32,000 nucleotides of DNA from Isorropodon fossajaponicum endosymbiont JTNG4 (GCF_016592615.1 NZ_AP013043.1:840001-872000), one strand, 5' to 3'. Positions 4,745 to 20,811 are shown, counted from the stretch's first letter. Notes: a model not told the origin generated them from the letters alone. Made by a program: numbers and translations.

Positions 4745-4761
4745 ATGGCTCCTCGAGGTGG
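4745..4761. repeat. Distal att site: duplicated tRNA-Asn 3' end fragment
   Basis: ATGGCTCCTCGAGgTGG here versus ATGGCTCCTCGAGcTGG at 20735-20751. Confidence 0.85.
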
Positions 4762-5427: not shown

Positions 5428-5446
5428 CGTTGATGTTCTTAGAAAG

Positions 5447-5929: not shown

Positions 5930-5942
5930 ATTAAATTATATT

Positions 5943-6353: not shown

Positions 6354-6489
6354 GTTAATCTATCAATTAGAAGAAGAATGGGCGATACAAAATTAAAAGG
6401 GAGCAATGAACTTTATTGATTTAAGAAATAATCGTATAAAGGAAATTTGCATAGCTTGCCTAGCTTAAATACTAATAAAGAATAATATT

Positions 6490-9400
6490 ATGGCGGAGAC
6501 AAAACATCTTATACCTGGACTATTCTGGAGACTCCTTGGATTCAAAGGTGGTTCTATTGATATTAGTGAAAAAGGGATAACATTACACAAAAGTGATAAA
6601 AGCTACTTTATTGATAACCATGCCTTTGTAAAGAAAGGATTTATTACAGGAGGATGGCCTAGTTTTCTTGTATTCAACACCACCCAAGGTGAAATTAAGT
6701 TTGGCCCCCTATCCCACGCTAAAGCCACACAGGCATACGAATGGCTACAAAGCTATTGGTATAAAGAAATCTTCCCTGAAATAAATAAAACATTCAAGAG
6801 CTTACAGCGAAGACTTACGAGTCGATATATTAGAAGTTCCCAGTGGCCTGAGATTATAAGTGATGCACAATCTGCATTAAATAGATTTGTAAAGCCACCT
6901 AACGAAGGTTTGGTGGATGACAAGATAAGACATCCTTTTATCAAGATAAACATCTATGCCCATATGGAAAGAGACAAATTGGATGATTATCGAAAAGAAT
7001 ATCTAACTCGAAAGAAGAAACAATTTAAGAAGTATTTTAAGAATATCGAATCTCACCCATTAACCGAAGACCAAATCGAAGCCTGCATCATAGATGAAGA
7101 CAACAACCTAGTATTGGCTGGAGCTGGTACAGGTAAGACCAGCACCATGGTTGGTAGAGCTGGATTTCTGTTGGAAAGTAAACAAGCTAAACCTGAAGAT
7201 ATACTAATGCTTGCATTTACCAAAGAAGCATCCAAAGAAATGCAAGAAAGAATGCAGCAAAGGATAAATAGAGATGATGTAAGTATTAGCACCTTTCATA
7301 AACTAGGCATAAATATCCTCTCTGAAGTTGAAGGTGGTCAGCCTAATATTAGTAAATATGCTGAAGACAACAAATCTAAAAATAGCGTATTCAAACAAGA
7401 TGTTAGCAAGTGGATTGACGAGCTATTAGAACAAGACAGTTATAAAGATAAAGTTATTAAGTATTTTGAAGATTACTTATATGTAGAAAAGAGTCCGTTC
7501 GATTTTAAAACTCAAGGTGAGTACTTTACTTATATCGAGGCTGATGAAATACGAACCTTTAAAGGTGTAAAAGTAAAAGGCCATGGTGAGCGAATTGTAG
7601 CAAATTTTCTTCTCAGGATGGGCATTGAGTACGAGTATGAAGCCAAATATAAATTTGATACAAAAACAATAGAGTACAGACAATATAAACCTGATTTTTA
7701 TCTACCTGAACATGATGTTTATATTGAACATTTAGGAGTAGATAGAGACGAATCGACTGCTCCCTACATTGACAAAGATTTATACCATCAGGGAATACGG
7801 TGGAAGCGTAATATTCATAAAATCAATAAAACCAATCTAATCGAGACATTCTATTATGAGCATAAAGACGGAACATTAAGAAGCAACCTAACCAAAAAGC
7901 TTAATGACTTAGGTATTGAGTGTAATCCATTGCCAAACGATGCAATTATCGAAACCTTACGTGAACATGAGGAAATAACCAAGTTCTCCGATTTAATGGC
8001 TGAGATTATTAAGAGATATAAAGCCAACTGGTTTGATCAAGACAAGTTAAACAGCAAGATAAACGCTTCTCCGTATAAGAAACATTTAAATATTGCATTA
8101 GAGTTAATGATGCCATTGATGAATAGGTATGAAAAAATACTAAGGGATAACGACGAGATAGACTTCGAAGATATGATTGGTAAAGCTTTGGAGTATGTAT
8201 TGGATGGTAGTTTTAAGCCACAATGGAAATTCATTATGGTTGATGAGTTCCAAGATATATCAGATCCTAGAGCTAGACTAGTACAAGCATTAAAAGAGAA
8301 ATCAGTTGACTGCTCTTTGTTCTGTGTTGGGGATGATTGGCAGGCTATTTACAGGTTTAGTGGGAGTGATATTAGTTTTACAACAGGATTCTCAGAATAC
8401 TTTGGAGCAACACAATTTACCAAGCTTAAAAAGACTTTCAGGTTTAATAATAGCATTGCAGAAGTGTCTTCACAATTTGTTCTAAAGAATCCTTTTCAAA
8501 CCAAGAAATCAATAACCACCCTCAGCAAGGTTAAAAAACCAGCTATTTCTATACTTAGAGAAAGTAATAAAGTTGTTGCTGGAGATGACAAGGAACTAAA
8601 TTTACTGTTAAGGAGGCTTGCCAAACAACCAGATAACAACAATTCTCCTTATTTATTAGGCAGATATATGCAGGTAGACAAAGTCCTGCAAGCTATTAAT
8701 AAATTAGACCGAAAAGTTTCTGTATTAATCTTAGGGAGATATAAATATACAATACCTAGCCCTGCAGAAATGAAACTGCATAAGGAAAAGTTTCCTAATT
8801 TAGAATTGAATAAACACACAGTCCATGCTTCAAAAGGTAAAGAGGCAGATTACGTTATTGTTATGAGATTACAGTCTGGAAAAGATGGCTTTCCTTCGGA
8901 AAAAACAAATAATCCACTACTAGACGCCCTACTACCAACCCCTGAAGATTTTGAATTTGCAGAGGAAAGAAGATTGTTTTATGTGGCAATTACAAGAGCT
9001 AAAAAGCGTTCTTATTTAATAGCTGATATGTCTACCTCTTCAAGCTTTGTAAATGAACTTATCAATGAGGATTACGACATTGAGTTGAATGAGTTTGAAA
9101 TCGCCCAAGAACAACGAATCTTTCAAAAGTTTCATTGTATCAAATGTGAAACTGGAGTTATGCAACACAAAGTCAGGCGTAAAGATAATGCCACCTTCTA
9201 TGGCTGTTCTCACTGGTCCCTTTGTAAGCACACAGAAAATGAATGCAGTCACTGTGGAGGTGCAATGACAAGGGTTAATGAATCTAATAAATATAGAGTT
9301 TGTTTGCCTTGTAAGAATTGGGTGTTAGTTTGCCCTGATTGCGGTGACGATATGAAGTGCATTTCTGGTAAATACGGCCTATTCTGGAGAGGTTTGCGTT

Positions 9401-9720
9401 CACATAGTGACGACAAAACTACATGTCAATATACAGTCAACAATAATAAAGTTATTCCGCCAAAAGGATATCCAAATATTGAGCAATTAATGGGTAAAAA
9501 GTTTAGTAGTCGCAAAGATGCTAAACAATATGCAGAAAAAGTTACAACAGAATCCAAAAAAACAACGCATCTAGTAGAGAATGAGTTTGACTTTGAGGTT
9601 TTTTCTAACTGGGATGATGCAAGTGAGTACGCTCAAGAGAAGCCTGGTAAGAGGAGTATTGAAAGACTAGATGAAAGACTAGATAAAGGAAGAGGATTTA
9701 CCGTTAAAGAGAAAAAGTAG
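6490..9720 (+). CDS. Helicase IV (HelD)-like SF1 UvrD-family helicase with an inserted PD-(D/E)xK-like module and C-terminal zinc ribbons
   Basis: The N-terminal domain is laid out like E. coli HelD. Walker A LVLAGAGTGKTS, motif II MVDEFQDISDPRA, motif III VGDDWQAIYRFSG, then TVHASKGKEADYVIVM and RRLFYVAITRAKKR. Insert: GERIVANFLLRMGIEYEYEAKY...YKPDFYLPEHDVYIEHLG (7585-7737). C-terminus (9130-9430): CIKC..x..GCSHWSLC, CSHCGG...CLPC and CPDCG...C, which look like topoisomerase-type Zn fingers. Confidence 0.85.
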   Translation: MAETKHLIPGLFWRLLGFKGGSIDISEKGITLHKSDKSYFIDNHAFVKKGFITGGWPSFLVFNTTQGEIKFGPLSHAKATQAYEWLQSYWYKEIFPEINKTFKSLQRRLTSRYIRSSQWPEIISDAQSALNRFVKPPNEGLVDDKIRHPFIKINIYAHMERDKLDDYRKEYLTRKKKQFKKYFKNIESHPLTEDQIEACIIDEDNNLVLAGAGTGKTSTMVGRAGFLLESKQAKPEDILMLAFTKEASKEMQERMQQRINRDDVSISTFHKLGINILSEVEGGQPNISKYAEDNKSKNSVFKQDVSKWIDELLEQDSYKDKVIKYFEDYLYVEKSPFDFKTQGEYFTYIEADEIRTFKGVKVKGHGERIVANFLLRMGIEYEYEAKYKFDTKTIEYRQYKPDFYLPEHDVYIEHLGVDRDESTAPYIDKDLYHQGIRWKRNIHKINKTNLIETFYYEHKDGTLRSNLTKKLNDLGIECNPLPNDAIIETLREHEEITKFSDLMAEIIKRYKANWFDQDKLNSKINASPYKKHLNIALELMMPLMNRYEKILRDNDEIDFEDMIGKALEYVLDGSFKPQWKFIMVDEFQDISDPRARLVQALKEKSVDCSLFCVGDDWQAIYRFSGSDISFTTGFSEYFGATQFTKLKKTFRFNNSIAEVSSQFVLKNPFQTKKSITTLSKVKKPAISILRESNKVVAGDDKELNLLLRRLAKQPDNNNSPYLLGRYMQVDKVLQAINKLDRKVSVLILGRYKYTIPSPAEMKLHKEKFPNLELNKHTVHASKGKEADYVIVMRLQSGKDGFPSEKTNNPLLDALLPTPEDFEFAEERRLFYVAITRAKKRSYLIADMSTSSSFVNELINEDYDIELNEFEIAQEQRIFQKFHCIKCETGVMQHKVRRKDNATFYGCSHWSLCKHTENECSHCGGAMTRVNESNKYRVCLPCKNWVLVCPDCGDDMKCISGKYGLFWRGLRSHSDDKTTCQYTVNNNKVIPPKGYPNIEQLMGKKFSSRKDAKQYAEKVTTESKKTTHLVENEFDFEVFSNWDDASEYAQEKPGKRSIERLDERLDKGRGFTVKEKK

Positions 9721-9785: not shown

Positions 9786-10457
9786 ATGAACACAACAGGT
9801 TTTGGTTACTTTCTAAGAGATATTCGTGAAAACGGTAAGATTTCTTTGCGCAAGCTAGCCCAAGAAACTCAGCTTGATCCAGCATATCTTTCACGAATGG
9901 AACGTGAAATGAGTCCAGCTCCTAGAGTGGAAATTGTTCAACGACTCGCTAAAGCACTTTGTGGTCTGCAAAACTTATCAATGGCAGAATGTGAAAAACT
10001 GAAACGTGATTTACTAGATTCAGCAGGACAACTTACTGAGAGCGCTGATTTGATTGATGACCTAAAGCAGCGTTTTGCGGAACGATTAAGAGACCAAGGG
10101 ATGGAGGAATCCTACATTGTTGATGCAGTCAGCAAGGTTAGCTTAGAAACTATGGACAGAATCTTAAGTGGCCTAGAGAATTTAGAAATTGGTTGTATCA
10201 GTCATTTTGTACCTGGTCCAGATTATTTACCGCTTGATGAAATTGAAGAGCGTAAATCAAAAGGCGAAGAAGTACACTTATTGAAAATGAAGGAAGTGCC
10301 TGCTTCTCCATCTCCTAGAAGAGCGAGCAAAGCTGTCAAAAAAACTAAGTTTCGAGCTGGCTCCCGTGCTTTTATTGAGGTCGATGGCGACCTGACCCCC
10401 TATCAAGAAGAGTTACTGAGGTCGATCACTAGTACGGTGCGACTCATACTAAAATAA
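9786..10457 (+). CDS. XRE-family helix-turn-helix transcriptional regulator with an uncharacterised C-terminal extension
   Basis: HTH_XRE pattern FGYFLRDIRENGKISLRKLAQETQLDPAYLSRMEREMSPAPRVEIVQRLAKAL. At 223 aa it is much longer than a minimal Cro/C-protein. Confidence 0.8.
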   Translation: MNTTGFGYFLRDIRENGKISLRKLAQETQLDPAYLSRMEREMSPAPRVEIVQRLAKALCGLQNLSMAECEKLKRDLLDSAGQLTESADLIDDLKQRFAERLRDQGMEESYIVDAVSKVSLETMDRILSGLENLEIGCISHFVPGPDYLPLDEIEERKSKGEEVHLLKMKEVPASPSPRRASKAVKKTKFRAGSRAFIEVDGDLTPYQEELLRSITSTVRLILK

Positions 10458-10493: not shown

Positions 10494-10748
10494 ATGATTA
10501 GAAGATCAAAAGGCTACGCAGTGGTAGAAGTAATGAATGCTGATAGAGAAATTAGAGCATCATTCAGCAAACTTGTGGATGCAATGGCGTTTCATAATGA
10601 TGACAAAATTGACATTGAAAAAGCAAGAATGCAATTTAAGAAAATAACCGATCGTGTGATTCGTGATTTTGAAGAAGATATGATGAATTTTCCTTCGCAT
10701 AGCGATTCACAAAGACCAGTTGAAAGAAGAATTTATACACACCAGTAG
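10494..10748 (+). CDS. Hypothetical 84-aa protein
   Basis: AGGAG RBS at 10482-10486, 7 nt before the ATG. No recognisable motif. Confidence 0.55.
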   Translation: MIRRSKGYAVVEVMNADREIRASFSKLVDAMAFHNDDKIDIEKARMQFKKITDRVIRDFEEDMMNFPSHSDSQRPVERRIYTHQ

Positions 10749-10931
10749 ATGTTAGAGAGTATACAACTTAGCGATTATCAACCTGACGAATTTAAGGAGT
10801 TGTACGTCTGTGCTTTAATACTGATGGCGCAAGATTCATCAATACAGGATGCACACAGTAGAGTGGAAACCTTGAGAGAGGGGTTAGAGTTTGAAGTAGA
10901 GGTCATACCAAATCGTGAAGAGACACACTAA
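10749..10931 (+). CDS. Hypothetical acidic 60-aa protein
   Basis: The ATG follows the upstream TAG directly (TAGATG), which suggests translational coupling. No recognisable motif. Confidence 0.45.
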   Translation: MLESIQLSDYQPDEFKELYVCALILMAQDSSIQDAHSRVETLREGLEFEVEVIPNREETH

Positions 10932-10969: not shown

Positions 10970-11323
10970 ATGAAAAAACTAATATTATTATCTTTATTAT
11001 TAAGCTTTAGTGCCTATAGCGACTGTTTAGACAACGCCATAACAACCACTGCTATGGTTGCTTGTTACGAGACACAGTTAGAAATAGAAGAGCAGAAACT
11101 AGATGATATGCTTAACAAGGCTTACAAGAAATCAGACTGGATTGCTTATGAGATTGAGCAGTCGCAGAAGTATTGGCTTCAATATAGGGACGCTCAATGC
11201 AGTGCTATATATTCTTTCTATGAGAGGGGCACAATGAGATTTATCGCTCATCCTTCTTGTATGGTTGAGTTGAGCAAGCAGAGGCAGAAGGAAATTTATA
11301 CAAGTTTTGTTGAGGATTGGTAA
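10970..11323 (+). CDS. Secreted DUF1311 / LprI-like (lysozyme-inhibitor family) protein
   Basis: Signal peptide MKKLILLSLLLSFSAYS. DUF1311 pattern with conserved Cys spacing: C..........C.....E...LD..LN.AY.......Q..WL.YRD..C.......G......C......R..E. Confidence 0.7.
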   Translation: MKKLILLSLLLSFSAYSDCLDNAITTTAMVACYETQLEIEEQKLDDMLNKAYKKSDWIAYEIEQSQKYWLQYRDAQCSAIYSFYERGTMRFIAHPSCMVELSKQRQKEIYTSFVEDW

Positions 11324-11370
11324 TAATTTTGTTGATAGATAAGTAGTAGCTAAGAAGATAAGAGTAAATA

Positions 11371-11417
11371 AGCTATGCACCCTATGCACATTGATTTAAT
11401 GCATAGCTTGCATAGCT
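11371..11417. repeat. Imperfect inverted repeat built from GCTATGCA units, upstream of the MTase module
   Basis: AGCTATGCACCCTATGCA (11371-11388), 11-nt spacer, TGCATAGCTTGCATAGCT (11400-11417). The arms match at 16/18 positions. A related element lies at 16658-16696. Confidence 0.7.
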
Positions 11418-11448
11418 TTAATAGGTGATAATTAATACATAAATCATT

Positions 11449-13546
11449 ATGAATATAACACAGATAGAACAAAACCTTAAAGGCCTAATCGATTCATTCG
11501 ATAAGGATGAGTTTATCTATGATTTATTATTAGCTTACGGAAGGCCTAAGGCGTCCATTACTCGTCTTAAAAGTGGCAACTTAAACCTGTCTTCAGTAGA
11601 AGGTGAAGTATCCTGGAAGAAGCAATTATTCTTTAAAGAAGAATACAATGCTGACCTACACCTAACAGTTTCAGAGTTAGTTAAAACAATCAAGAATGAC
11701 CAAAGGTTTGTCATCGTTACTGATTATGAAACTCTTCTAGCGATTGATGCCAAGACACTAGATAAGCTTGATATTAAACTAACTGATTTACCTAAGCATT
11801 ATGATTTCTTCTTGCCTTGGGCTGGCATGGAGAAAACTCAGCATCAAGATGAAAATCCTGCCGATGTTAAAGCTGCTGAGAAGATGGCTAAGCTATTTGA
11901 TAAGATTAAGGAAGATAATCCAGATGACTCACCTGAGTTTATTCATGGTCTAAATGTCTTCTTATCAAGGCTGTTGTTCTGTTTCTTTGCAGAAGACACT
12001 AATATCTTTACTGGGAATCAGTTTACTTCTAACATAAGCTCACACACACAGCCTGATGGCAGTGATTTACATAGTTACCTAGCAAGCTTGTTCAAGGTAT
12101 TAAACACACCTGAATCGGACAGACAAGGCCTACCTGATTACTTAAAAGAGTTTCCTTATGTCAATGGTGAGCTGTTTAGTAAAGAGCATCAAATACCTGT
12201 ATTTAAGACCAAATCAAGACAAGCGATTATCGATAGTGGTACGCTAGACTGGTCAAGCATTAACCCTGACATCTTTGGCTCAATGTTCCAAGCAGTAGTT
12301 GGAGAGACTGAACGGGGTAGCTTAGGCATGCACTACACCTCGGTGCCTAATATCATGAAGGTAATCAAGCCTTTATTCTTAGATGATTTGTATGAAGCCT
12401 TTGATAAGTCAATTGGAAATAATAAGAAGCTAATTAAGTTAGCTGATAGACTTAGTAAGATTAAGATATTCGACCCTGCTTGTGGCTCAGGGAACTTCCT
12501 GATTATTGCCTTTAAAGAGCTTAAGAGATTAGAGATGGAAATCTTTAAAGAGTTGAACTCTTTCACCTTTTCACAAATAACACCTTCACAGTTCTACGGT
12601 ATTGAAATAGATGACTTTGCTCATGAAATAGCCAAACTGTCTTTATGGTTGACCGAACATCAAATGAATGTTGAGTTTAATAATGAGTTTGGCAGGGCTA
12701 ATCCAACGCTACCACTTAAGAAAGCTGGCAATATTACTTGTGCAAATGCTACGAGAATTGATTGGGAAGAGGTTTGCCCTAAAGATCGAGATGATGAAAT
12801 TTATGTTTTAGGAAATCCTCCCTATTTAGGTTCAAGAAATCAAAATCTTCATCAAAAAGATGATATGAAATTTGTATTTACAACTGGATACAAGAGTTTA
12901 GATTATATTTCTTGTTGGTTTTATCTGGGTGCGAACTACATAAGGGGTGTAAATATAAAGTGTGCATTTGTATCTACTAATTCAATATCTCAAGGCGAAC
13001 AAGTGTCACTTACATGGCCAAGAGTTCTAAAAAAAGATGTAGAGATATTTTTTGCTTATCAGTCATTTAAGTGGAAAAACAATGCCATAAGCAATGCTAA
13101 TGTAATAGTTGTTATTATTGGCATTGCAAACACCTCTAGTGATAAAAAATATATGTTTAAGGAAGCGATAAAGCATGAAGTTTCAAGTATAAATGCATAT
13201 GTTATGGATGAGGGCTGTTGGAGGAAGGCTAAAAACAGATTATAGGTATTCAAAAAATGTTGTTTACAATACCTTTCCATTTCCAACAATGAGCAAGAGG
13301 CAAAAAGAAGAATTAACTCAACATGTTTTTAATATCCTGGGTGAGCGAGAAAAGCACCCTGAGAAGACATTAGCCCAACTCTACGATCCAGACAAAATGC
13401 CAGACGGTTTACGAGAAGCTCATCATCAAAATGATTTAGCGATTGAGAGTTGTTATCGTAGCAAGCCATTTGAAAATGATGAAGAAAGACTGGAGTATTT
13501 ATTTAAACTATATGAAAAGATGATTGCCGAAGAGGAGACTAAGTAA
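11449..13546 (+). pseudogene. MmeI-family-like gamma-class N6-adenine DNA methyltransferase, disrupted by a frameshift and an apparent deletion of the target-recognition domain
   Basis: Motif I IFDPACGSGNFLI (from 12469) precedes motif IV GNPPYLG (NPPY at 12814-12825). FVSTNSISQGEQV is present. The family C-terminal tail GGRLKTDYRYSKNVVYNTFPFP...LYDPDKMPDGLREAHHQNDLAIE...ERLEYLFKLYE is in a different frame (13193-3546). Frame 1 stops at 13243-13245. Confidence 0.75.
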
Positions 13547-13547
13547 T

Positions 13548-15476
13548 ATGCCAAATTTAATTGATGTTGAATACGCTCAAACGGGCCAAAGCACCAGTAC
13601 CAATGAGATGGGTATGCGAGACATGCAGGTTCGTGCCTTTGATGGTCGTGATGCTCAATACATTCTACTAAAGTCTCCACCAGCCTCAGGCAAGTCTCGT
13701 GCTTTAATGTATATAGCGTTAGACAAGTTAATCAATCAAGGTGTTAAAAAGGTAATTGTTGCCGTGCCTGAACGCTCAATTGGTGGCTCGTTTGTGACAA
13801 CTGATTTAAAGTCCAAAGGATTCTTTGAGGACTGGGAGCCAAGTGATCGATATAACCTTTGCACCCCAGGGGGAAGCAAGAGCAAGGTCAAGGCTTTCCA
13901 TAACTTTCTAGATAGTGATGAACAGATACTAATTTGTACACACGCCACACTTCGCTTTGCATGTGAGGGGATAGATGAAAGTCAGTTTAACGATGTACTA
14001 TTGGCAATTGATGAGTTCCATCACGTGTCGGCAGATGTAAATAGTCGATTAGGTGAACTATTAAGGCCAATCATGAATAGGTCTTCCGCACATATTTTTG
14101 CCATGACTGGTTCGTACTTTAGAGGAGATAGTGTTCCAATTCTATTGGCAGCAGATGAAGCTAAATTTACTAAGATCACTTATAACTATTATGAGCAGTT
14201 AAACGGCTATAAATACTTAAAGTCTTTAGGTATTGGCTATCACTTTTATCAAGGTAAATATACTTCTGCGATTATGGAAGTATTAGACACAGACAAGAAG
14301 ACCATTCTTCACATTCCTAATGTCAACTCAGGTGAGTCAACCAAAGACAAGCATAATGAAGTTGATTTCATTCTAGATGCTATTGGCGATGTAGTGAGCC
14401 AGGATGCCGATACAGGCGTTATTCATGTCAAAAGACATGGTGATGACGGCAAGATGTTAAAAATAGCCGATTTAGTGGAGGATACCGCTCTTGAAAGGGA
14501 TAAGATTGTGGCTTATTTGAGAGGTATGAATTCTGTTGATGACATGGATTTAATTATTGCTCTGGGTATGGCCAAAGAAGGATTTGACTGGCCATATTGT
14601 GAGCATGCATTAACCGTTGGTTACCGAAGTTCACTCACTGAAATCATTCAAATCATTGGCCGAGCCACTCGTGATAGTGACAATAAGAATCATGCCCAAT
14701 TCACTAACTTAATTGCTCAGCCTGATGCAGATAATGATGAGGTTAAGATAGCTGTTAATAACATGCTTAAAGCTATTACTGCGTCACTATTAATGGAACA
14801 AGTTCTAGCCCCTAGCTTTAAATTTAAAACCAAATTATCAGATGATGACACATCAACAGGCAGGACAATAAAAGTTGGCGGCCTGAAAGAGCCTAGCTCT
14901 AAACGAGTTAAAGATATTGTTGAGTCTGACTTAAATGATTTAAAGGCTGCGATATTACAAGACCCTCAGATGCTCAAAGCCATGCCAGGCAATATAGACC
15001 CCAAGGTTATGAATGAGGTGTTAATCCCTAAAATCATTAGAACCAAATACCCTGATTTATCTGACCAAGAGTTAGAAGAAGTACGTCAGCATGTAGTGAC
15101 TGATTCAGTGATTAAGAATGGTGAGATTAAAAAAGTAGGTGACAAACGATTCATTCGTATGGCGGATACTTTTATTGATATTGATGAGATAAACATAGAC
15201 TTAATTGATTCTATTAACCCCTTTCAAAAAGCCTTTGAAATCATGTCTAAGTCAGTCACTAAACAGGTGCTTAAAGTTATTCAAGAAACTATCCAGGCTA
15301 CAAGAATTAAGATGGATTGGGAGGAGGCAAAGATACTGTGGCCCAAGGTTAAAGAGTTTGTCAAAGCCAATAAAAGAGAACCAAGCATTGAATCTCGTAA
15401 CCCTCAAGAGCAACGTTTGGCAGAATGTGTAATTTACCTTAAAGAAGAGAAAAGAAGGAATGCCCAGAATGGATAA
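13548..15476 (+). CDS. SF2 DExH-box helicase/translocase (restriction Res-like) with an uncharacterised C-terminal region of about 200 aa
   Basis: ATG at 13548 with a GAGGAG RBS (13532-13537), 1 nt after the MTase stop. Walker A LLKSPPASGKSRAL, DEFH box AIDEFHH (14010-14021), motif III-like MTGSYFRGD and motif VI QIIGRATRD. Confidence 0.8.
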   Translation: MPNLIDVEYAQTGQSTSTNEMGMRDMQVRAFDGRDAQYILLKSPPASGKSRALMYIALDKLINQGVKKVIVAVPERSIGGSFVTTDLKSKGFFEDWEPSDRYNLCTPGGSKSKVKAFHNFLDSDEQILICTHATLRFACEGIDESQFNDVLLAIDEFHHVSADVNSRLGELLRPIMNRSSAHIFAMTGSYFRGDSVPILLAADEAKFTKITYNYYEQLNGYKYLKSLGIGYHFYQGKYTSAIMEVLDTDKKTILHIPNVNSGESTKDKHNEVDFILDAIGDVVSQDADTGVIHVKRHGDDGKMLKIADLVEDTALERDKIVAYLRGMNSVDDMDLIIALGMAKEGFDWPYCEHALTVGYRSSLTEIIQIIGRATRDSDNKNHAQFTNLIAQPDADNDEVKIAVNNMLKAITASLLMEQVLAPSFKFKTKLSDDDTSTGRTIKVGGLKEPSSKRVKDIVESDLNDLKAAILQDPQMLKAMPGNIDPKVMNEVLIPKIIRTKYPDLSDQELEEVRQHVVTDSVIKNGEIKKVGDKRFIRMADTFIDIDEINIDLIDSINPFQKAFEIMSKSVTKQVLKVIQETIQATRIKMDWEEAKILWPKVKEFVKANKREPSIESRNPQEQRLAECVIYLKEEKRRNAQNG

Positions 15477-16647
15477 AGAGCAAGCTCTATCCGCTATATT
15501 TGCAGATGACCCTTTAGGTATTCTTGTAATAAGGGCAGCTTCAGCACCGAGAACATCTGATGAGAGGCTAGTGTCTTCATTCCAAGAGATTACTGATTTT
15601 TATACAGCCAACGGGCGTGAGCCAGAAGCAAATCAGAGTGATATTGCAGAGTACCAATTACATGCAAGATTAAACAGTCTTAGAGAAGACACTGATAAAG
15701 CCGAATCGTTAGAAGAGTACGATCAGTTTGATTTACTTAAGGTTGAAGAAAAAGAAATTAATTCTATTGATGATATATTTGATGATGACTCCCTAAATAT
15801 TCTTGGTGGAGATGATGAGGGTCTGTTTGATTTTGAACACACACCAAAGCAAAAAGATATTAATAAAGCTGACTTCGTTGCTCAAAGAAAACGATGCAAG
15901 GACTTTGATAAATATGAGCAGCAGTTCAAAGACATTCATCATGACTTAAAAGCAGGAAAAAGAAAGCTTATACCTTATCAAGAGAAGCAATTAAATGAGG
16001 CAGGCAATTACTTTGTTCACAATGGAATCTTGCTTTACCTTGAAACTATTAATGACCTAGCAAAGGATAGGTTTCATAAGGCTGATGGTAGAACTAAAAT
16101 CATCTTTGAAAATGGCACTGAATCAAACATGAAGCTTCGTTCACTTGGTAAAAATTTACTAAAAAATAGCAAAGCAGTTACAGCTAATACAGAACAATAC
16201 GATGAAGACTTCCTTAAAACCTTTAATAATGTAACTGATGAAGACGATGAAACAGGCTTTATCTATGTCTTAAAATCGAACAGCATGGACGAGACTATTG
16301 CATCAATTGCCAACCTGCATAAGATTGGATACTCAAAGAATGATGTTGCTGGACGAATTAAGAATGCAGAGCATGAGCCAACCTATCTAATGGCCTCAGT
16401 TTCAATTGTTGGTATTTGGCAATGTTTCAATATGAATCCGCAGAAGTTCGAGCAATTACTCCATAACTTCTTTGGCATGACATGTCTTGATCTAGATGTG
16501 TTTGATGACAATGGCAAACGTCATAGGCCGCAAGAGTGGTTTATTGTCCCAATTGAGGCAATCAATCAGGCGATTGAAATGATAATTAGTGGCGTTATTG
16601 TCAACTATAGATATGACCAGGAATCTGAATCTATTGTATTAAGATAG
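15460..16647 (+). CDS. Protein with a C-terminal T5orf172 (GIY-YIG superfamily) domain
   Basis: The ATG at 15460 overlaps the helicase stop (15476). The C-terminal GFIYVLKSNS...LHKIGYSKNDVAGRIKN......IVGIWQCFNMNPQKFEQLLHNFF.......RPQEWFIVPIEAINQAIEMI fits the T5orf172 pattern. An alternative start lies at 15469. Confidence 0.7.
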   Translation: MPRMDKEQALSAIFADDPLGILVIRAASAPRTSDERLVSSFQEITDFYTANGREPEANQSDIAEYQLHARLNSLREDTDKAESLEEYDQFDLLKVEEKEINSIDDIFDDDSLNILGGDDEGLFDFEHTPKQKDINKADFVAQRKRCKDFDKYEQQFKDIHHDLKAGKRKLIPYQEKQLNEAGNYFVHNGILLYLETINDLAKDRFHKADGRTKIIFENGTESNMKLRSLGKNLLKNSKAVTANTEQYDEDFLKTFNNVTDEDDETGFIYVLKSNSMDETIASIANLHKIGYSKNDVAGRIKNAEHEPTYLMASVSIVGIWQCFNMNPQKFEQLLHNFFGMTCLDLDVFDDNGKRHRPQEWFIVPIEAINQAIEMIISGVIVNYRYDQESESIVLR

Positions 16648-16657
16648 GCCCAATTAA

Positions 16658-16696
16658 AGCTAGGCAAGCTATGCACTTTGCATAACTTGCATAGTG
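16658..16696. repeat. Imperfect inverted repeat of GCTATGCA-type units, downstream of the MTase module
   Basis: AGCTAGGCAAGCTATGCA (16658-16675), loop CTT, TGCATAACTTGCATAGTG (16679-16696). Each arm matches its counterpart at 11371-11417 at 15/18 positions. It sits between convergent genes, so it may also act as a terminator hairpin. Confidence 0.65.
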
Positions 16697-16704
16697 TTAT
16701 GTTG

Positions 16705-18290
16705 CTAGAACTTGTCTTTGAATGATTTTAAATCTATATGACTGTCATCAAAATCGTCATCCTCTGCTTCAAACTCATATTCAGTTGCTCTTTGATTGTG
16801 CTTACTAATCGTTACAAAGGTTTTGTTCGTCCTGTCTTTTGATTTTTCATAGTAAATACCAACAATCTCTAATGATTCTTGAAGCCTATCCAGGTAGTTA
16901 ACCACGCCTTTGGCGGTAGTTGGCCATCTTTGTGACCTGATAACCTTTTCAGATACATAACATTTGTCTTCTAGCCTCTCCAGCAATTCAATCGGTCTGC
17001 CATAAAAGTTACTTTCTCTTTCAAACATCTTAACAATACCAGAAGCAAAGGTAGAGGACTCTAACGAATCGACATGGGTGTTCCTTATGTTGTCTTTATA
17101 GACTTTCATAAACTCACCTTCGAACCATCCATAGGCACCTGATGCTGCTGTAGACAGTCGACAGAAGTCGGCCATACGGGTTAAATCATCAACCTGTGTA
17201 TGCGGCATGGCTTGAATTGACCAAGCCAGTCCATCTAGTAATGCACCAAAGATAGATGGAGCATCTGCCGTAAAGTCAGCCCAAACCTTTTTCTCAGTTT
17301 TCCTAGTCTTGATTTTTCTTAGCGGTAACTTAACGCTACGACTAACTAAATCACCACGCTTAGCTATCTCATCAATACCATTCATAAGACAAGGTTTCTT
17401 AATGGAGATGGTCATCTCATCGTTAGTGGTGTAGAGCTTTCTAACTGCCTGGTTGTCGCCTGTTGCAATCTTGCAAATAGCATCACTAAACTGAGGACTG
17501 ATGCCACTCAAGTTGTCAAATGCTAGTACATGGTTGTTAGTTCCAATTACTCTCATGTCACTAATGCTTGGCTTGGTGAGCAAGTCAACTTTGTTAGGGT
17601 CTACAAGCTCTCTAAGCATCCTAGAAGCGGTTGTCTTACCTGTGCCAGCACTACCCCATTAAGAATCATAACAGGATAGGCTCCTGGTCCAGCTTGCAAT
17701 GACATTAGCAACCACCCAACAGCAAGAGGTAAGTCTCTCTTCTCGATGTTAATATGATTAAGTAACAATGAAATATCACCACCCTCTATAGGAGCAGGCA
17801 ATGGCCTCATGTTTCCAGTACGTGTAAAGCATACTGGAGATTTATCTAGCACTCTCCAGCCATTTATATCAACTTCAACAACCTGCCATGAGTCATTACA
17901 CAGGTCAATGTACATGGAGTTATCTACTTGGGCTACCCTTAGATAAACATCTTTTCTATCGCCATCAAAATCTGCAATAGATTTAATGGTGTCAATAGCA
18001 GTATCTAGTGCCGCCTTAGAAACGCCTGTGAGTGTTTGATAATAATACTTCTTTCTTAACCAGCTCTTATATTTAACCGAATCTGCTCGATATATTTCCG
18101 TATGGCCATTGAGTTTAATTTCAGCGTATTCATTTTCTTGATTATCACAAAACAAAACGTTTTCCAACCTAGCAAAATCAATTAATATGTTCTCTGGTTT
18201 TTTGTTAGAATTATCATTGAGGTTATTATCCAATTTCTTCTGGCCAGTTAAGCTCTCTACAGTTTCACTGGCTTTTTTATTGTCATTCAT
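16705..18290 (-). pseudogene. P-loop NTPase replication (primase/helicase-like) protein of the island, frameshifted in a homopolymer tract
   Basis: Two ORFs overlap (17601-18290 and 16705-17619). The Walker A GSAGTGKTTASRMLRELV is readable only in the downstream frame, which is closed by TAA just upstream. One extra G in the GGGG run (C4 at 17654-17657 on the plus strand) would restore ..VMILNGGSAGTGKTT... Walker B-like VLAFDNLSG is present. Confidence 0.7.
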
Positions 18291-18484
18291 TTCGTCACCG
18301 CCCTCTTCTCAATACATTTATCCAAATAGTCCATCACCTCTTGCTCAACCCAACCGCTTGAGCGTTCACTTAATTTGATTTGCTTTGGAAACTTTCCATC
18401 CGCTATTAAACGGTAGATAGTTGTACGACTAAGGGTGGTTATATTTAGTACCTGGTACAGTTTTATGATATTCATGTGCTTCAT
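18287..18484 (-). CDS. alpA: AlpA-family (MerR-like HTH) regulator/excisionase
   Basis: LSRTTIYRLIADGKFPKQIKLSERSSGWVEQEVMDYL is the classic AlpA/phage_AlpA pattern. AGGAG RBS upstream. The stop overlaps the next gene's start (ATGA). Confidence 0.85.
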   Translation of the reverse strand: MKHMNIIKLYQVLNITTLSRTTIYRLIADGKFPKQIKLSERSSGWVEQEVMDYLDKCIEKRAVTK

Positions 18485-18572
18485 TAAGACTCCTTGTCTT
18501 GGTTAAAAAAGCGTTATTAGGTTGTAATAACTACTTGTGGAGTATTATGAAATATCGTGTGATTTATTGAAA

Positions 18573-18603
18573 AGGTGATTTTATAAAATAAAATAAATCA
18601 CCT
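18573..18603 (-). terminator. Hairpin downstream of orf256 (candidate terminator)
   Basis: AGGTGATTT (18573-18581) pairs with AAATCACCT (18595-18603) across a 13-nt A/T loop, 20 nt after the stop at 18623. The trailing T-run is weak. Confidence 0.4.
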
Positions 18604-18622
18604 AAGAAGAATGTTGTTATGA

Positions 18623-19393
18623 CTAGGGTTTCAGAGCGTTGAAGATATATTTCTTTATTGTATTATCTTTTAAATTCCGCTCTGCTTTATTTAAACAAAG
18701 CTTAACCAAGTTGAAGAACCTGCCCTCAATAAGCTCATCGTCAGTCTCATTGATATAGTAGCCGTCGTCCTTACCTTTGTGTGTTGTGGTGTATTTACCT
18801 TTAGAGCTTCCTGTGAAGATTTTATAGTTAATAAAAAGATTTCTAATGAAAGCCATATCAATATTCACTTTGCTTTGATTTGATTCTAACTCGATATAAT
18901 TTGAATTATTCTTTTCAAGATTTTCTATTACACCTTGCAATAAAAGCAGTGAAGTAATAATATCTTCTCGTGATGTTGAGATTTCTTTTGCGATTGAACT
19001 GGTGTTGAGCTTTACAAGTTCACTATTGATAATATCTAACTTTTGACTGTGTGTACTTACAGGTGGTGGTGCAAATGCAGAGAAGTAGGTTATAGGGTCA
19101 TCCTTGTTTGTAGTTTTGTATCGATTAACCTCATCCAGTGCCTTGGCTTTAAATTCACCAGCCCCTACTTCATTAGATAAAAGCAAGTTAACTAACGTAT
19201 CAGCAGTCTCGTATATTTCACGTCCAGATGATTTCTTCCACGATTTAGCGCGAATATAAATCATTTGGTCAATATTTATATGCTGAACAAAGTCGCTCTC
19301 GATTTCATCAATAGATGAATTAGTGTATGACTTGTTATCAAATCCAATTTCAAGTAGGTCTTGCTCCGTAATTAGGTATGACTCTCTATCCAT
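18623..19393 (-). CDS. Hypothetical 256-aa protein, translationally coupled to the integrase
   Basis: The ATG at 19393 overlaps the integrase 3' end (19386) by 8 nt. No recognisable motif. Confidence 0.6.
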   Translation of the reverse strand: MDRESYLITEQDLLEIGFDNKSYTNSSIDEIESDFVQHINIDQMIYIRAKSWKKSSGREIYETADTLVNLLLSNEVGAGEFKAKALDEVNRYKTTNKDDPITYFSAFAPPPVSTHSQKLDIINSELVKLNTSSIAKEISTSREDIITSLLLLQGVIENLEKNNSNYIELESNQSKVNIDMAFIRNLFINYKIFTGSSKGKYTTTHKGKDDGYYINETDDELIEGRFFNLVKLCLNKAERNLKDNTIKKYIFNALKP

Positions 19394-20579
19394 TGGAGTT
19401 GCCTTTTATATTATCTAAGTAATCAGACCACTGCTGCATCATATCCCTTCTCTTCTCAAGATACTCCGCATTGTTATAGGCATCTCGAGTCTTATTAGCT
19501 TCAACATGTGCTAATTGCATTTCAATCCAATCTGAATTAAATCCCATCTCATTTAACCTGGTGCTAGCCATGCTTCTAAAGCCATGAGTAGTGAACTTTT
19601 CTTTCGGAATGCCTAACCTTCTAATAGCTGCACGTAAACTTTCAGCACTTATTGGAGATGAGCTTTTCTTGGGACTTGGGAAGACGTATGTATCACTTAA
19701 ACTTAAAGACTTAATCTCCTTAAGTTTAGAAAGCACTTGTTTACTTAAAAACACCAAATGCTCCCTACCCATCTTCATGTTTTCAGCCTTGATCCTGATA
19801 AGCTTCTCTTTAAAATTAACCTCTTTCCATGTAAGCTTAGAAACCTCACCAGGCCTTAAGAGCAAGTAAGGCGTTAAGTTCAATGCCTCTGCAATTTGAT
19901 AGGTACCTCTGCCCTTGTAATTCTCTAGCGTTAACAGTAGCTCCTTAATATCATCTTCAGTAGTTACAGTGGCATGATGTTTAGTCTTATGCTTCTTAAA
20001 ATGCTCGTTGGTAATATTGGCTATTGGGTCGTACTCGATCAATCCAGTAACAACACAATCTTTAAACACCCTGCTTGACCAACCCTTAACTTTCTTAAGA
20101 GCAATTGAAATACCTTTATCATCCATCTGTCTAAGAACATGCAACATATCTGGAGTCTTAATATCTTCAATTGGAGTATTGCCGATGTAAGGAAAGATGT
20201 GTTTTTCAAAAGTAGCAACTTGTTTCTGAGCAGTTCGTTTTGTCCATTCACTCTCATGCCTATTAAACCATCTGTCAAATGCTTCTCTAAAGGTAATCTT
20301 CTGCTGTTGCTTAATTTTTAACTGTTTCTTATAAGCGCTAGGATTAATACCTTGTGACAATAAGGCTTGGTTTTCATCTCTAAGCACTCTAGCTTGAGCT
20401 AATGATACTGCTGGATATTTTCCTAACGAAATCATTGAAGCTTTACCGTCATAACGATAACGAAACCTCCACTTCTTTGCACCTTTAGGAGTGATTCGTA
20501 TAGACAAGCCGTTACTATCAGCGACTCCATACTCAAAGTCCTTAGTTTTTAGGTTTTTAATTTTAGTATTGTTAAGCAT
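19386..20579 (-). CDS. int: Tyrosine-type site-specific integrase (P4-like, DUF4102 N-terminal domain)
   Basis: N-terminus GLSIRITPKGAKKWRFRYRYDGKASMISLGKYPAVSLAQAR. C-terminal catalytic region LLLRPGEV, HGFRSMASTRLNE and IEMQLAH...RDAY. It lies next to the tRNA 3' end. Confidence 0.93.
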   Translation of the reverse strand: MLNNTKIKNLKTKDFEYGVADSNGLSIRITPKGAKKWRFRYRYDGKASMISLGKYPAVSLAQARVLRDENQALLSQGINPSAYKKQLKIKQQQKITFREAFDRWFNRHESEWTKRTAQKQVATFEKHIFPYIGNTPIEDIKTPDMLHVLRQMDDKGISIALKKVKGWSSRVFKDCVVTGLIEYDPIANITNEHFKKHKTKHHATVTTEDDIKELLLTLENYKGRGTYQIAEALNLTPYLLLRPGEVSKLTWKEVNFKEKLIRIKAENMKMGREHLVFLSKQVLSKLKEIKSLSLSDTYVFPSPKKSSSPISAESLRAAIRRLGIPKEKFTTHGFRSMASTRLNEMGFNSDWIEMQLAHVEANKTRDAYNNAEYLEKRRDMMQQWSDYLDNIKGNSNG

Positions 20580-20590
20580 AGTTTTTATCT

Positions 20591-20614
20591 TATACTCACA
20601 ATTGTACTCACTTT
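20591..20614 (+). repeat. Tandem 12-bp units TATACTCACAAT / TGTACTCACTTT, a candidate integrase arm-type site
   Basis: Same core (T[AG]TACTCAC) and orientation as the repeat at 4821-4844. It lies directly upstream of int. Confidence 0.5.
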
Positions 20615-20699
20615 ATATCAGGATGTCGCGGAATTTCATGGAACAGTAAAAACACACTATATTGTTAAATACCGCTATAGGTAGGTATTTAAGACATAA

Positions 20700-20726
20700 A
20701 TCAAGACACCCTGGGGGTGTCTTGAT
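20700..20726 (-). terminator. Island-borne hairpin after tRNA-Asn, a candidate terminator insulating int
   Basis: ATCAAGACACC (20700-20710) pairs with GGTGTCTTGAT (20716-20726) across a 5-nt loop. On the minus strand it is followed by TTTATGTCTT. Confidence 0.55.
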
Positions 20727-20735
20727 TTACTTGTA

Positions 20736-20811
20736 TGGCTCCTCGAGCTGGGCTCGAACCAGCGACAAATGGATTAACAGTCCATTGCTCTACCAACTGA
20801 GCTATCGAGGA
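20736..20811 (-). tRNA. tRNA-Asn (anticodon GTT), CCA encoded
   Basis: The reverse complement reads TCCTCGATAGCTCAGTTGGTAGAGCAATGGACTGTTAATCCATTTGTCGCTGGTTCGAGCCCAGCTCGAGGAGCCA. It has a 7-bp acceptor stem TCCTCGA/TCGAGGA, anticodon loop CTGTTAA, a GGTTCGAG T-arm, and close resemblance to E. coli tRNA-Asn. Confidence 0.95.

What the first reader, a model, noticed from the sequence alone, without database searches (positions are those of the whole stretch)
11449..16647. Coupled MTase / SF2 helicase / T5orf172 (GIY-YIG-like) operon: candidate unclassified R-M-like defence system
Three plus-strand genes are packed as one translational unit. The MTase stop is at 13546 and the helicase ATG at 13548, behind a GAGGAG RBS. 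The helicase stop at 15476 is overlapped by the next ATG at 15460. Gene 1 is a gamma-class N6A methyltransferase (FDPACGSGNFLI before GNPPYLG) with the characteristic C-terminal tail of the MmeI / type IIL family. Its N-terminal region (..GEVSWKKQLFFKEE..RFVIVTDYETLLAID..) seems to keep the fold of the MmeI nuclease domain, but I see no clear D..ExK triad. Gene 2 is a DExH helicase (GKS Walker A, DEFH, QIIGRATRD). Gene 3 carries a T5orf172/GIY-YIG-superfamily domain, which could supply nuclease activity in trans. The architecture does not fit the classes I know. There is no HsdS (Type I), no beta-class Mod plus PD-ExK Res (Type III), it is not a single polypeptide (ISP/IIL), and there are no PglZ, DUF1998 or PLD partners (BREX/DISARM). 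It sits in the cargo region of a tRNA island with a satellite-like backbone, a typical home for anti-phage systems.
Basis: partly seen in the sequence, partly recalled or inferred. Interest (0 to 1): 0.82.

Follow-up and report, generated by a model that had tools for sequence, protein, structure and literature searches.

The report
Broken copy of known YeeA-YeeB-YeeC module
The three genes are a real, tightly linked methylase, helicase and nuclease-like module, but the module was described in 2009 (YeeA/DnmA-YeeB-YeeC, a suspected restriction-modification system), and this copy is disabled because the methylase gene has lost its DNA-recognition domain.

Summary
The three plus-strand genes exist, and the stop and start coordinates given are correct. 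Gene 1 is not intact. A deletion of about 0.53 kb removed about 170 codons, almost the whole target-recognition domain, and shifted the frame. This left two fragments, 11449-13245 and 13193-13546. The helicase (13548-15476) and the T5orf172 protein (probable start 15469, end 16647) are full length.

The triad is the MmeI-like, nuclease-motif-less YeeA/DnmA + YeeB + YeeC cluster. Morgan et al. described it in 2009 as a probable Type I-like R-M system. It showed no restriction or phage protection in B. subtilis. It was protective in Vibrio crassostreae.

In 80 genomes from more than 12 phyla, yeeA lay upstream of yeeB in 63 of 63 testable loci, and yeeC lay directly downstream in 73 of 73.

Two new supporting points:
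- In sibling islands with the same backbone, the same repeat-bounded slot holds Type I hsdM-S-R operons.
- Genes embedded between yeeA and yeeB elsewhere (RhuM, AlbA_2/Schlafen, Fic) include families listed between Type I core genes.

The window most likely comes from a vesicomyid clam endosymbiont.

Verdict: a known kind, here a decaying relic. The family has no formal R-M type, no entry as a system in PADLOC or NCBIfam, and no biochemistry in the papers I found. Interest is low to moderate.

The parts
11371..11425 (+). Palindromic pair of 9-mer-repeat elements (TGCATAGCT TGCATAGCT, with an inverted copy at 11371-11388). It ends 24 nt upstream of the yeeA ATG and forms the left boundary of the cassette slot. 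It is a candidate operator, promoter or iteron.
   Evidence: D4; I1, I2. The same pair sits 50-110 nt upstream of hsdM in sibling islands.
11449..13245 (+). yeeA/dnmA fragment 1 (598 aa). It holds the nuclease-dead MmeI-type N-terminal domain, the helical spacer and the gamma-class N6-adenine MTase domain. It ends prematurely after the deletion junction.
   Evidence: Pfam MmeI_N 3e-30, MmeI_hel 9e-26, MmeI_Mtase 2e-106. PADLOC PDLC03598 positions 25-626 of 912. MmeI 5HR4 E=4e-118. Family HMM positions 1-591 of 885.
13185..13215 (+). Deletion junction. About 533 bp (about 170 codons, essentially the whole TRD) is missing relative to intact homologues, and the frame is shifted. The end points fall in the conserved blocks NINxY and SKIHMxW that flank the variable TRD.
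13193..13546 (+). yeeA fragment 2 (117 aa, other frame). It holds the last 32 positions of the MmeI TRD plus the MmeI C-terminal domain, up to the native stop.
   Evidence: Pfam MmeI_C 3e-21, MmeI_TRD positions 175-206 of 207. PADLOC PDLC03598 positions 798-911. Family HMM positions 762-878.
13548..15476 (+). yeeB, an SF2 DExH helicase or translocase of 642 aa. It is full length and all motifs are present. The C-terminal 240 aa or so have no known domain.
   Evidence: HMM positions 1-643 of 643. Identity to homologues across phyla is 63-79%.
15469..16647 (+). yeeC, 392 aa. It has an N-terminal helical region, a beta-rich middle domain and a C-terminal T5orf172/GIY-YIG-clan domain (aa 263-392). 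It is full length. An alternative in-frame ATG is at 15460.
   Evidence: Pfam T5orf172 and MUG113. 100% identical to NCBI protein P0121. AF2 model pLDDT 72. Foldseek hits to phage T5orf172 and GIY-YIG proteins, E from 1e-5 to 1e-3.
16650..16705 (-). Right-hand copy of the element (26-nt arm at 16650-16675, 92% complementary to 11400-11425), plus TATGCA repeats. It lies between the yeeC stop and the 3' end of backbone gene orf16705. It is conserved after that gene in sibling islands.
   Evidence: (I1).
16705..20811 (-). Island backbone: orf16705-17619, orf17601-18290, AlpA 18287-18484, orf18623-19393, tyrosine integrase 19386-20579 and tRNA-Asn 20736-20811.
   Evidence: The backbone is conserved in metagenome contigs L098, L122, L139 and others.
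4746..4761 (+). Distal att-like direct repeat of the tRNA-Asn 3' end (15 of 16 nt). It marks the far end of the island of about 16 kb.
   Evidence: D3.

Best explanation
The locus is a recently inactivated copy of the YeeA(DnmA)-YeeB-YeeC three-gene module. It is carried as cargo in the R-M slot of a tRNA-Asn integrative island, most likely in the Isorropodon fossajaponicum (vesicomyid clam) endosymbiont.

How intact modules probably work (inferred, not shown):
1. YeeA is an MmeI-family protein whose N-terminal domain keeps the MmeI-like sequence frame but has lost the ExK catalytic residues.
2. YeeA reads an asymmetric site with its C-terminal TRD and methylates one adenine on one strand.
3. 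At unmodified sites YeeA recruits or licenses the YeeB SF2 translocase and the YeeC GIY-YIG-type nuclease, which supply ATP-dependent cleavage in trans. This is a Type I-like division of labour.

In this window a deletion of about 0.53 kb removed the TRD and shifted the frame. YeeA can therefore neither find its site nor, by this model, direct restriction. yeeB and yeeC survive as intact ORFs. Either they are harmless without YeeA or the event is recent.
For: Identity of the module:
- Domain content.
- The YeeA N-terminal profile aligns to MmeI residues 28-177 (E=6e-9). MmeI E80 is replaced by K63. K82 is replaced by E65, in a column that varies among homologues.
- The architecture matches the description in PMC2731913 and the synteny analysis in PMC9973331.

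Linkage:
- Among the 80 kept, yeeA was upstream on the same strand in 63 of 63 loci with enough flank.
- yeeC was directly after yeeB in 73 of 73, with gaps of -5 to +109 bp.
- The triad also occurs in Methanolobus and on 265 plasmids. One is a 7.7-kb Pediococcus plasmid whose only three listed genes are the triad.

Inactivation.

R-M-like role:
- Sibling islands share the Int-AlpA-orf17601-orf16705 backbone and the same flanking repeat elements. In the same slot and orientation they carry three size classes of hsdM-hsdS-hsdR operon, one of each confirmed by Pfam.
- Genes embedded between yeeA and yeeB in 28 of 69 loci include RhuM (8 loci), AlbA_2/Schlafen (7), Fic and PDDEXK_3. RhuM and Fic are listed between Type I core genes in a table of PMC9881135.
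- yeeAB inactivation restored phage sensitivity in V. crassostreae.
- B. subtilis lacking dnmA grows normally (PMC7261158). This fits restriction that depends on the MTase.

Source organism: YeeC is 100% identical to a protein of Isorropodon fossajaponicum endosymbiont JTNG4.
Against: - In the literature I found, no biochemical demonstration exists that YeeB and YeeC cleave DNA or interact with YeeA.
- In B. subtilis the cluster gave no restriction of transformation and no phage protection.
- YeeC's nuclease competence is inferred only from clan membership and conserved Y266, R296 and E356. Foldseek against the PDB found no significant match, and a profile search of the PDB found no GIY-YIG structure.
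- dN/dS against the closest relative is low for all parts, including the yeeA fragments (0.07-0.17). The age of the deletion and any relaxation of selection therefore cannot be measured.
- I could not align the window proteins directly to B. subtilis YeeA, YeeB and YeeC. They were not retrievable.
Confidence: 0.78

Rival explanations
1. The triad in this window is an intact, active and previously undescribed defence system.
For: Tight translational coupling, full-length helicase and T5orf172 genes, and a location in an island cargo region. No PADLOC or NCBIfam system model covers the partners.
Against: yeeA lacks 170 profile positions, including the TRD, and is frameshifted. The triad has been described and tested in the literature since 2009.
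Confidence: 0.03
2. yeeB and yeeC keep a function of their own in the symbiont without YeeA. This could be a methylation-independent helicase-nuclease defence or a DNA repair or recombination activity. That function would explain why they remain intact.
For: Both are full length, carry every residue that is invariant in the family alignments, and show dN/dS of 0.07 and 0.12 against L001.
Against: In 63 of 63 testable loci yeeB-yeeC are accompanied by yeeA. No solo pair was seen. The low dN/dS mostly reflects divergence before the deletion, because the yeeA fragments show it too. Decay of yeeC accompanies decay of yeeA in L043 and in a Proteus plasmid, and yeeC is also split in L063.
Confidence: 0.1
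3. The family is mainly an epigenetic or regulatory methylation module, as argued for B. subtilis DnmA. On this reading YeeB and YeeC are relics everywhere, and the module is not a restriction system.
For: B. subtilis data show no restriction and no phage protection, and m6A affects promoters. S. mutans SMU.43, which has a YeeA motif, is described as an orphan MTase.
Against: Relics would not keep 63-79% identity in YeeB across phyla and archaea, with absolute synteny. The V. crassostreae knockout phenotype argues against it. The module also swaps with Type I R-M in sibling islands.
Confidence: 0.08
4. The apparent deletion and frameshift in yeeA is an assembly or sequencing artefact, and the real gene is intact.
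For: None specific. The genome comes from an uncultured symbiont.
Against: The difference is a clean 533-bp absence between two conserved blocks, not a homopolymer slip. Both flanks are otherwise uninterrupted reading frames.
Confidence: 0.03

Closest known systems
DnmA(YeeA)-YeeB-YeeC cluster of Bacillus subtilis and its homologues (Morgan 2009; Nye 2020; Fernandez 2023; V. crassostreae yeeAB, Piel 2021)
   Same: The gene order, strand and domain content are the same. These are an MmeI-family MTase-TRD without the PD-ExK motif, an SF2 DEAD/DExH helicase, and a T5orf172/GIY-YIG-motif protein. The location on a horizontally acquired element also matches.
   Different: This copy has lost the TRD and is frameshifted. 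I obtained no direct alignment to the B. subtilis proteins. [quoted passage not shown]
MmeI, Type IIL/IIG restriction-modification enzyme (PDB 5HR4)
   Same: YeeA aligns with MmeI over residues 108-611 (E=4e-118). More weakly, it aligns over the N-terminal domain from residue 28. The helical spacer, gamma-class MTase and C-terminal domain are shared.
   Different: MmeI is a single polypeptide with catalytic D70, E80 and K82. Here E80 is replaced by K, the K82 column is variable, and two extra genes are obligatorily linked.
Type I R-M (HsdM/HsdS/HsdR)
   Same: Modification and specificity are on one component, and an SF2 ATPase and a nuclease are supplied separately. Accessory genes embedded in the operon include RhuM and Fic, which are also reported in Type I operons. 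The module occupies the same island slot as hsdMSR in sibling islands.
   Different: There is no HsdS, because the TRD is fused to the MTase. There is no HsdM_N or HSDR_N domain. The helicase has no PD-ExK nuclease domain. The nuclease candidate is a separate GIY-YIG-clan protein. Modification is expected to be single-strand.
Type ISP enzymes (LlaGI, LlaBIII)
   Same: They combine nuclease, SF2 helicase, gamma-class adenine MTase and TRD, with single-strand modification.
   Different: They are one polypeptide with an Mrr-type nuclease. Here there are three proteins and a GIY-YIG-type nuclease candidate.
BREX PglX and DISARM DrmMI methyltransferases
   Same: Distant homology of the MTase core (PADLOC and NCBIfam E-values of 1e-6 to 1e-18).
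   Different: Scores are far below the curated cut-offs. The ORFs scanned in the window include no PglZ, BrxC, BrxL, DrmA or DUF1998 partner.

Membership tests
YeeA/DnmA-YeeB-YeeC cluster (MmeI-like, nuclease-motif-less three-gene module) | The first gene is an MmeI-family protein with N-terminal, helical spacer, gamma-class MTase, TRD and C-terminal domains. | tested here: inconclusive
   All domains are found except the TRD, of which only the last 32 of 207 Pfam positions remain. The gene is a derivative of such a protein, not an intact one.
YeeA/DnmA-YeeB-YeeC cluster (MmeI-like, nuclease-motif-less three-gene module) | The N-terminal domain lacks the PD-ExK catalytic residues of MmeI (D70, E80, K82). 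| tested here: met
   In the profile alignment to 5HR4, D70 corresponds to E53, E80 to K63, and K82 to E65. The K82 column is variable in 13 homologues.
YeeA/DnmA-YeeB-YeeC cluster (MmeI-like, nuclease-motif-less three-gene module) | An SF2 DEAD/DExH helicase gene lies downstream of yeeA on the same strand, usually adjacent. | tested here: met
   In the window, the stop at 13546 and the ATG at 13548 are 1 nt apart. In other genomes yeeA was upstream in 63 of 63 loci, adjacent (gap under 150 bp) in 41 of 69.
YeeA/DnmA-YeeB-YeeC cluster (MmeI-like, nuclease-motif-less three-gene module) | The third gene encodes a protein with a C-terminal T5orf172/GIY-YIG-type domain. | tested here: met
   Pfam T5orf172 46.9 bits (cut-off 20) and MUG113 45.7 bits (cut-off 22.3). 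Present in 73 of 73 loci. BFVD fold matches to T5orf172 and GIY-YIG proteins.
YeeA/DnmA-YeeB-YeeC cluster (MmeI-like, nuclease-motif-less three-gene module) | Direct sequence homology to B. subtilis YeeA, YeeB and YeeC. | not tested
   The B. subtilis sequences could not be retrieved. They were not in the top 120 hits of a search seeded with a Bacillus-lineage YeeC. Membership rests on architecture and on the published descriptions.
YeeA/DnmA-YeeB-YeeC cluster (MmeI-like, nuclease-motif-less three-gene module) | The system is functional, giving methylation and, where active, phage restriction. | not testable with these tools
   The sequence predicts loss of function through the TRD deletion and frameshift. 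There are no methylome or phenotype data.
Type IIL/IIG (MmeI proper) | A single polypeptide with an active PD-ExK nuclease, and no obligatory partner genes. | tested here: not met
   The ExK residues are absent and two partner genes are obligatorily linked. PADLOC nevertheless scores YeeA as REase_MTase_IIG at 6e-200.
Type I R-M | A separate HsdS, an HsdM with the HsdM_N domain, and an HsdR with HSDR_N nuclease fused to SWI2/SNF2. | tested here: not met
   These domains are absent from the triad. They are present in the hsdMSR cassettes of sibling islands.
Type III R-M | A beta-class Mod plus a Res subunit that has a helicase with a C-terminal PD-ExK nuclease. | tested here: not met
   The MTase has gamma-class motif order (motif I at aa 341 before NPPY at aa 456). 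ResIII scores only 20.4 bits, below the cut-off of 22.5.
BREX / DISARM | PglZ, BrxC and BrxL partners, or DrmA(DUF1998), DrmB and DrmC partners. | tested here: not met
   None was found among the scanned ORFs of the window. PglX and DrmMI hits lie far below the cut-offs.
GIY-YIG nuclease superfamily (for YeeC) | The beta-beta-alpha-beta-alpha core with GIY and YIG strands, a catalytic Arg and a metal-binding Glu. | tested here: inconclusive
   The AF2 model gives beta 263-270 (GFIYVL), beta 283-289 (KIGYS), helix 293-297 (R296), beta 311-319, helix 324-334 and E356. It matches predicted phage T5orf172 and GIY-YIG models. There was no significant match to solved structures by fold or by profile.

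The most novel reading that the evidence does not exclude
YeeABC is a genuine, separate architecture of ATP-dependent restriction-modification: a hemimethylating MmeI-type MTase-TRD, a stand-alone SF2 translocase and a GIY-YIG-type nuclease acting in trans. In SUP05-clade and clam-symbiont islands, whole R-M modules (three kinds of Type I, or YeeABC) are exchanged as cassettes between two conserved palindromic 9-mer-repeat elements. Those elements also act as the island's operator or iteron sites.
Probability: 0.25. Interest if true: 0.5.

Novelty: already known. Interest (0 to 1): 0.27.

Why it matters
For this window it matters little. It is a decaying copy of a described module in a symbiont genome.

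The family itself is very widespread. The 80 loci kept span more than 12 phyla, and the triad also occurs in an archaeon and on 265 plasmids. The helicase is 63-79% identical across this range. Yet the family has no formal R-M type, no entry as a system in PADLOC or NCBIfam, and no biochemistry in the papers I found.

Automated pipelines will label the MTase 'Type IIG' and ignore its partners. The positional swap with Type I R-M and the accessory genes in common with Type I operons, both found here, add comparative support for the 2009 hypothesis. They also point to compact intact triads suitable for testing, such as L001 or the 7.7-kb Pediococcus plasmid.

Tried and rejected
- Foldseek of the YeeC model against the PDB gave nothing at E<=0.001. 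The best hits were weak eIF5A-like matches to the middle beta domain.
- A profile of the YeeC C-terminal domain against PDB sequences gave only chance hits to spastin.
- The AF2 model of YeeB, built from a shallow 9-sequence alignment, was too poor to use (pLDDT 49). No fold search was run on it.
- The YeeB profile against the PDB gave only motif-level matches to LGP2/DHX58.
- I tried to reach B. subtilis YeeC through a Bacillus-lineage query. It was not in the top 120 hits.
- The look-up of the contig encoding P0121 found nothing on record.
- PHROGs and Pfam gave nothing for backbone ORFs 16705-17619, 17601-18290 and 18623-19393. A 'satellite-like' backbone is therefore supported only by the integrase and AlpA.
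- I first read the 26-nt inverted repeats bracketing the triad as terminal inverted repeats of a mobile cassette. I set this aside when the same elements turned up around Type I R-M cassettes and directly after the backbone gene in sibling islands. Operator or iteron sites, or recombination flanks, fit better.
- I considered D93, D100 and K102 in 'VTDYETLLAIDAKT' as a cryptic PD-DxK motif and rejected it. D93 is N in 3 of 13 homologues, and MmeI has the same block (residues 108-123) outside its catalytic site.
- The sigma-70 and terminator scans of 11250-16800 found fewer sites than the shuffles and were uninformative.
Full report
**Observation**

TAA is at 13544-13546, ATG at 13548, and GAGGAG 11 nt upstream. 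The helicase stop is at 15474-15476, overlapped by the next ORF.

Pfam confirms the domain calls:
- Gene 1 has MmeI_N, MmeI_hel and MmeI_Mtase.
- Gene 2 has weak DEAD and Helicase_C matches.
- Gene 3 has T5orf172 and MUG113 at aa 266-375.

Gene 1 is broken. ORF 11449-13245 ends early, and the MmeI C-terminal domain lies in another frame at 13193-13546. The PADLOC profile PDLC03598 is matched at positions 25-626 and 798-911 of 912. A family HMM is matched at 1-591 and 762-878 of 885. Alignment with intact homologues of 878-904 aa shows that about 172 columns, the TRD, are missing.

At DNA level the gap relative to the closest relative L001 is 533 bp, which is not a multiple of three. Its end points fall in the conserved blocks (NINxY, SKIHMxW) that flank the variable TRD.

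yeeB and yeeC cover their family profiles end to end and keep every residue that is invariant in the family alignments. Homologues and the NCBI protein begin at MDK. The likelier yeeC start is therefore 15469, giving an 8-bp overlap.

**What it is**

The helicase has more than 8000 relatives. The best 120 are all at least 77% identical, although the few that carry organism names include Gammaproteobacteria, Bacteroidota and the archaeon Methanolobus. Contigs encoding close and distant relatives all show the same triad with an intact MmeI-family gene of 878-904 aa.

Of 600 stretches, 589 encode relatives. The 80 loci kept come from more than 12 phyla, including CPR lineages, Chlamydiae, Actinomycetota, Firmicutes and Campylobacterota. 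I scored all six-frame ORFs with HMMs for the three proteins:
- yeeA lay upstream on the same strand in 63 of 63 loci with at least 2.8 kb of flank.
- yeeC lay directly after yeeB in 73 of 73 loci with at least 1.25 kb of flank.

**Already known**

A full-text search shows the triad is the YeeA(DnmA)-YeeB-YeeC cluster.
- Morgan et al. 2009 split MmeI homologues into two sets. One has the PD-ExK motif. The other lacks it, differs in the first 100 residues or so, and is 'invariably' next to a DEAD helicase (YeeB) and a protein with GIY-YIG motifs (YeeC). They proposed a Type I-like system with single-strand modification. They also found that YeeA expressed on its own has no endonuclease activity.
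- Nye et al. 2020 showed that DnmA makes m6A at GACGAG. They found no effect on transformation and no growth defect in a dnmA deletion.
- Fernandez et al. 2023 showed conserved synteny but no phage protection in B. subtilis, and called it a relic.
- Piel et al. 2021 found that inactivating yeeAB in V. crassostreae restored sensitivity to one phage group.

I found no formal name or R-M type. PADLOC scores YeeA as Type IIG and has only weak PbeA and PDC-S57 hits for the partners. NCBIfam has nothing for them. RefSeq calls them 'DEAD/DEAH box helicase' and 'GIY-YIG nuclease family protein'.

I could not retrieve the B. subtilis proteins for a direct alignment.

**Nuclease-dead N-terminus**

phmmer aligns MmeI (5HR4) only from window residue 85. 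A profile of 13 YeeA N-termini extends the alignment to MmeI residues 28-177 (E=6e-9). It places window E53 opposite D70, K63 opposite E80 and E65 opposite K82. The last of these is a variable column.

**YeeC and YeeB structure**

The AF2 model of YeeC (pLDDT 72) shows an N-terminal helical part, a beta-rich middle domain and a C-terminal beta-beta-alpha-beta-alpha unit. That unit carries GFIYVL, KIGYS, R296 and E356. Foldseek finds predicted phage T5orf172 and GIY-YIG proteins (23 hits at E<=1e-3). It finds nothing significant among solved structures, and a sequence profile finds no PDB relative. The T5orf172 fold is supported, but catalytic competence is inferred.

YeeB has no solved relative beyond motif-level matches, and its model was unusable.

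**New comparative evidence for an R-M-like role**

1. The triad is bracketed exactly by 26-nt inverted repeats (11400-11425 and 16650-16675, 92% complementary). They are built from tandem TGCATAGCT 9-mers. A third copy sits upstream of the helicase-IV-like gene at 6490.
2. A metagenome scan for the element found at least 12 contigs in which the same element of about 52 nt directly follows a homologue of backbone gene orf16705 (71-90% aa identity). Several of them also carry the Int-AlpA-orf17601 backbone.
3. In those sibling islands the slot between the two element pairs holds hsdM-hsdS-hsdR operons of three size classes, in the same orientation. One of each class was confirmed by Pfam. YeeABC and Type I R-M are therefore interchangeable cargo in one slot.
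4. In 28 of 69 loci, same-strand genes are embedded between yeeA and yeeB. They recurrently include RhuM (8 loci), AlbA_2/Schlafen-HATPase_c_4 (7 loci), Fic and PDDEXK_3. RhuM and Fic are listed between Type I core genes in the table of PMC9881135.

**Status of this copy**

Without a TRD, YeeA cannot recognise a site. On the Type I-like model this abolishes both methylation and restriction. That would explain how intact yeeB and yeeC can coexist with a dead yeeA, and it fits the viability of B. subtilis lacking dnmA.

dN/dS against L001 is 0.07-0.17 for all segments, so the deletion is a single event whose age cannot be resolved.

Similar decay occurs elsewhere:
- yeeA is split in L024, L043 and L047.
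- yeeC is split in L043 and L063.
- yeeA is truncated by IS26 on a Proteus plasmid.

YeeC is 100% identical to a protein of the Isorropodon fossajaponicum endosymbiont JTNG4. This is the likely source of the window. It is a clam endosymbiont, and from general knowledge gene decay is common in such genomes.

**Verdict**

Novelty is 'already known'. Interest is 0.27. The residual value lies in the under-studied family and in the cassette-slot observation.

Noticed in passing
window 6448-6471, 11371-11425, 16650-16705: A repeated element of tandem 9-mers (TGCATAGCT TGC[C/A]TAGCT), with adjacent TATGCA repeats, occurs three times in the island. One copy is upstream of the helicase-IV-like gene. 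A palindromic pair is upstream of yeeA. An inverted pair lies between the yeeC stop and backbone gene orf16705. It could be an operator, an iteron set or origin, or a flank for cassette exchange.
   Followed up: partly
L094, L096, L098, L100, L102, L106, L110, L122, L139, L152, L159, L161 (metagenome contigs): These are sibling islands sharing orf16705 followed by the element. Several also carry Int, orf18623, AlpA or orf17601. They carry Type I hsdM-hsdS-hsdR operons of three size classes in the slot that holds yeeABC in the window. The same palindromic element pair sits 50-110 nt upstream of hsdM.
   Followed up: yes
window 6490-9720 (with 9786-10457, 10494-10748, 10749-10931, 10970-11323): A second cargo module. 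It has a 1076-aa UvrD/helicase-IV-like protein (NCBIfam DNA helicase IV 7e-154, below cut-off; PADLOC RTasHel and GajB-like hits) with C-terminal zinc-ribbon-like Cys clusters. This is followed by an XRE-type HTH protein (capH-like and C-protein-like hits), two small ORFs and an LprI-family protein. L107 is a 90-97% identical homologue that includes the upstream element. It may be another defence module, and the HTH protein is a candidate regulator of the repeat elements.
   Followed up: partly
L006, L011, L013-L015, L017, L019, L021, L037, L039, L052, L056, L057, L060, L065, L066, L070, L073, L082, L085 (gap between yeeA and yeeB): In 28 of 69 loci, one to seven same-strand genes are inserted between yeeA and yeeB. 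Recurrent families are RhuM (8 loci), AlbA_2/Schlafen + HATPase_c_4 (7 loci), Fic/DOC and PDDEXK_3. There is also an extra DEAD helicase and several ORFs with no Pfam match.
   Followed up: partly
window 11449-13546 compared with L001 3505-6141: Synonymous divergence is mosaic. dS is 0.33-0.43 for the yeeA N-terminal 320 aa, yeeB and yeeC. It is 1.1-1.5 for yeeA aa 321-580 and the C-terminal fragment. This suggests the MTase-TRD half was exchanged by recombination.
   Followed up: partly
L088 (Pediococcus pentosaceus plasmid pP76, NZ_CP148041.1): The only three genes listed for this 7.7-kb plasmid are the intact triad (DNA methyltransferase, DEAD/DEAH helicase, GIY-YIG nuclease family protein). 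It is a compact natural construct for functional tests.
   Followed up: no
L024, L043, L047, L063; L087 (Proteus terrae plasmid p152): Other decayed copies. yeeA is frameshifted or interrupted in L024, L043 and L047. yeeC is split in L043 and L063. On the Proteus plasmid yeeA is truncated by IS26 and yeeC is split.
   Followed up: partly
window 4746-4761 and 20736-20751: A 16-nt imperfect direct repeat of the tRNA-Asn 3' end delimits an island of about 16 kb. Between the distal repeat and the first cargo module lie small ORFs with TonB_2 and Sel1 matches (5074-6353).
   Followed up: partly
window 15469-16647: YeeC is 100% identical to an NCBI protein of 'Isorropodon fossajaponicum endosymbiont JTNG4' (1.45-Mb contig). 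The flanking housekeeping genes (uvrB, icd-like, ilvA-like, dksA, panC) fit a small gammaproteobacterial genome.
   Followed up: partly
window 16705-17619 and 17601-18290 (minus strand): Two conserved backbone ORFs have no Pfam, NCBIfam or PHROG match. They overlap by 19 nt in the window and are about 34 nt apart in the sibling islands. Because they sit next to the repeat element, they are candidates for the island's replication or DNA-binding proteins.
   Followed up: partly
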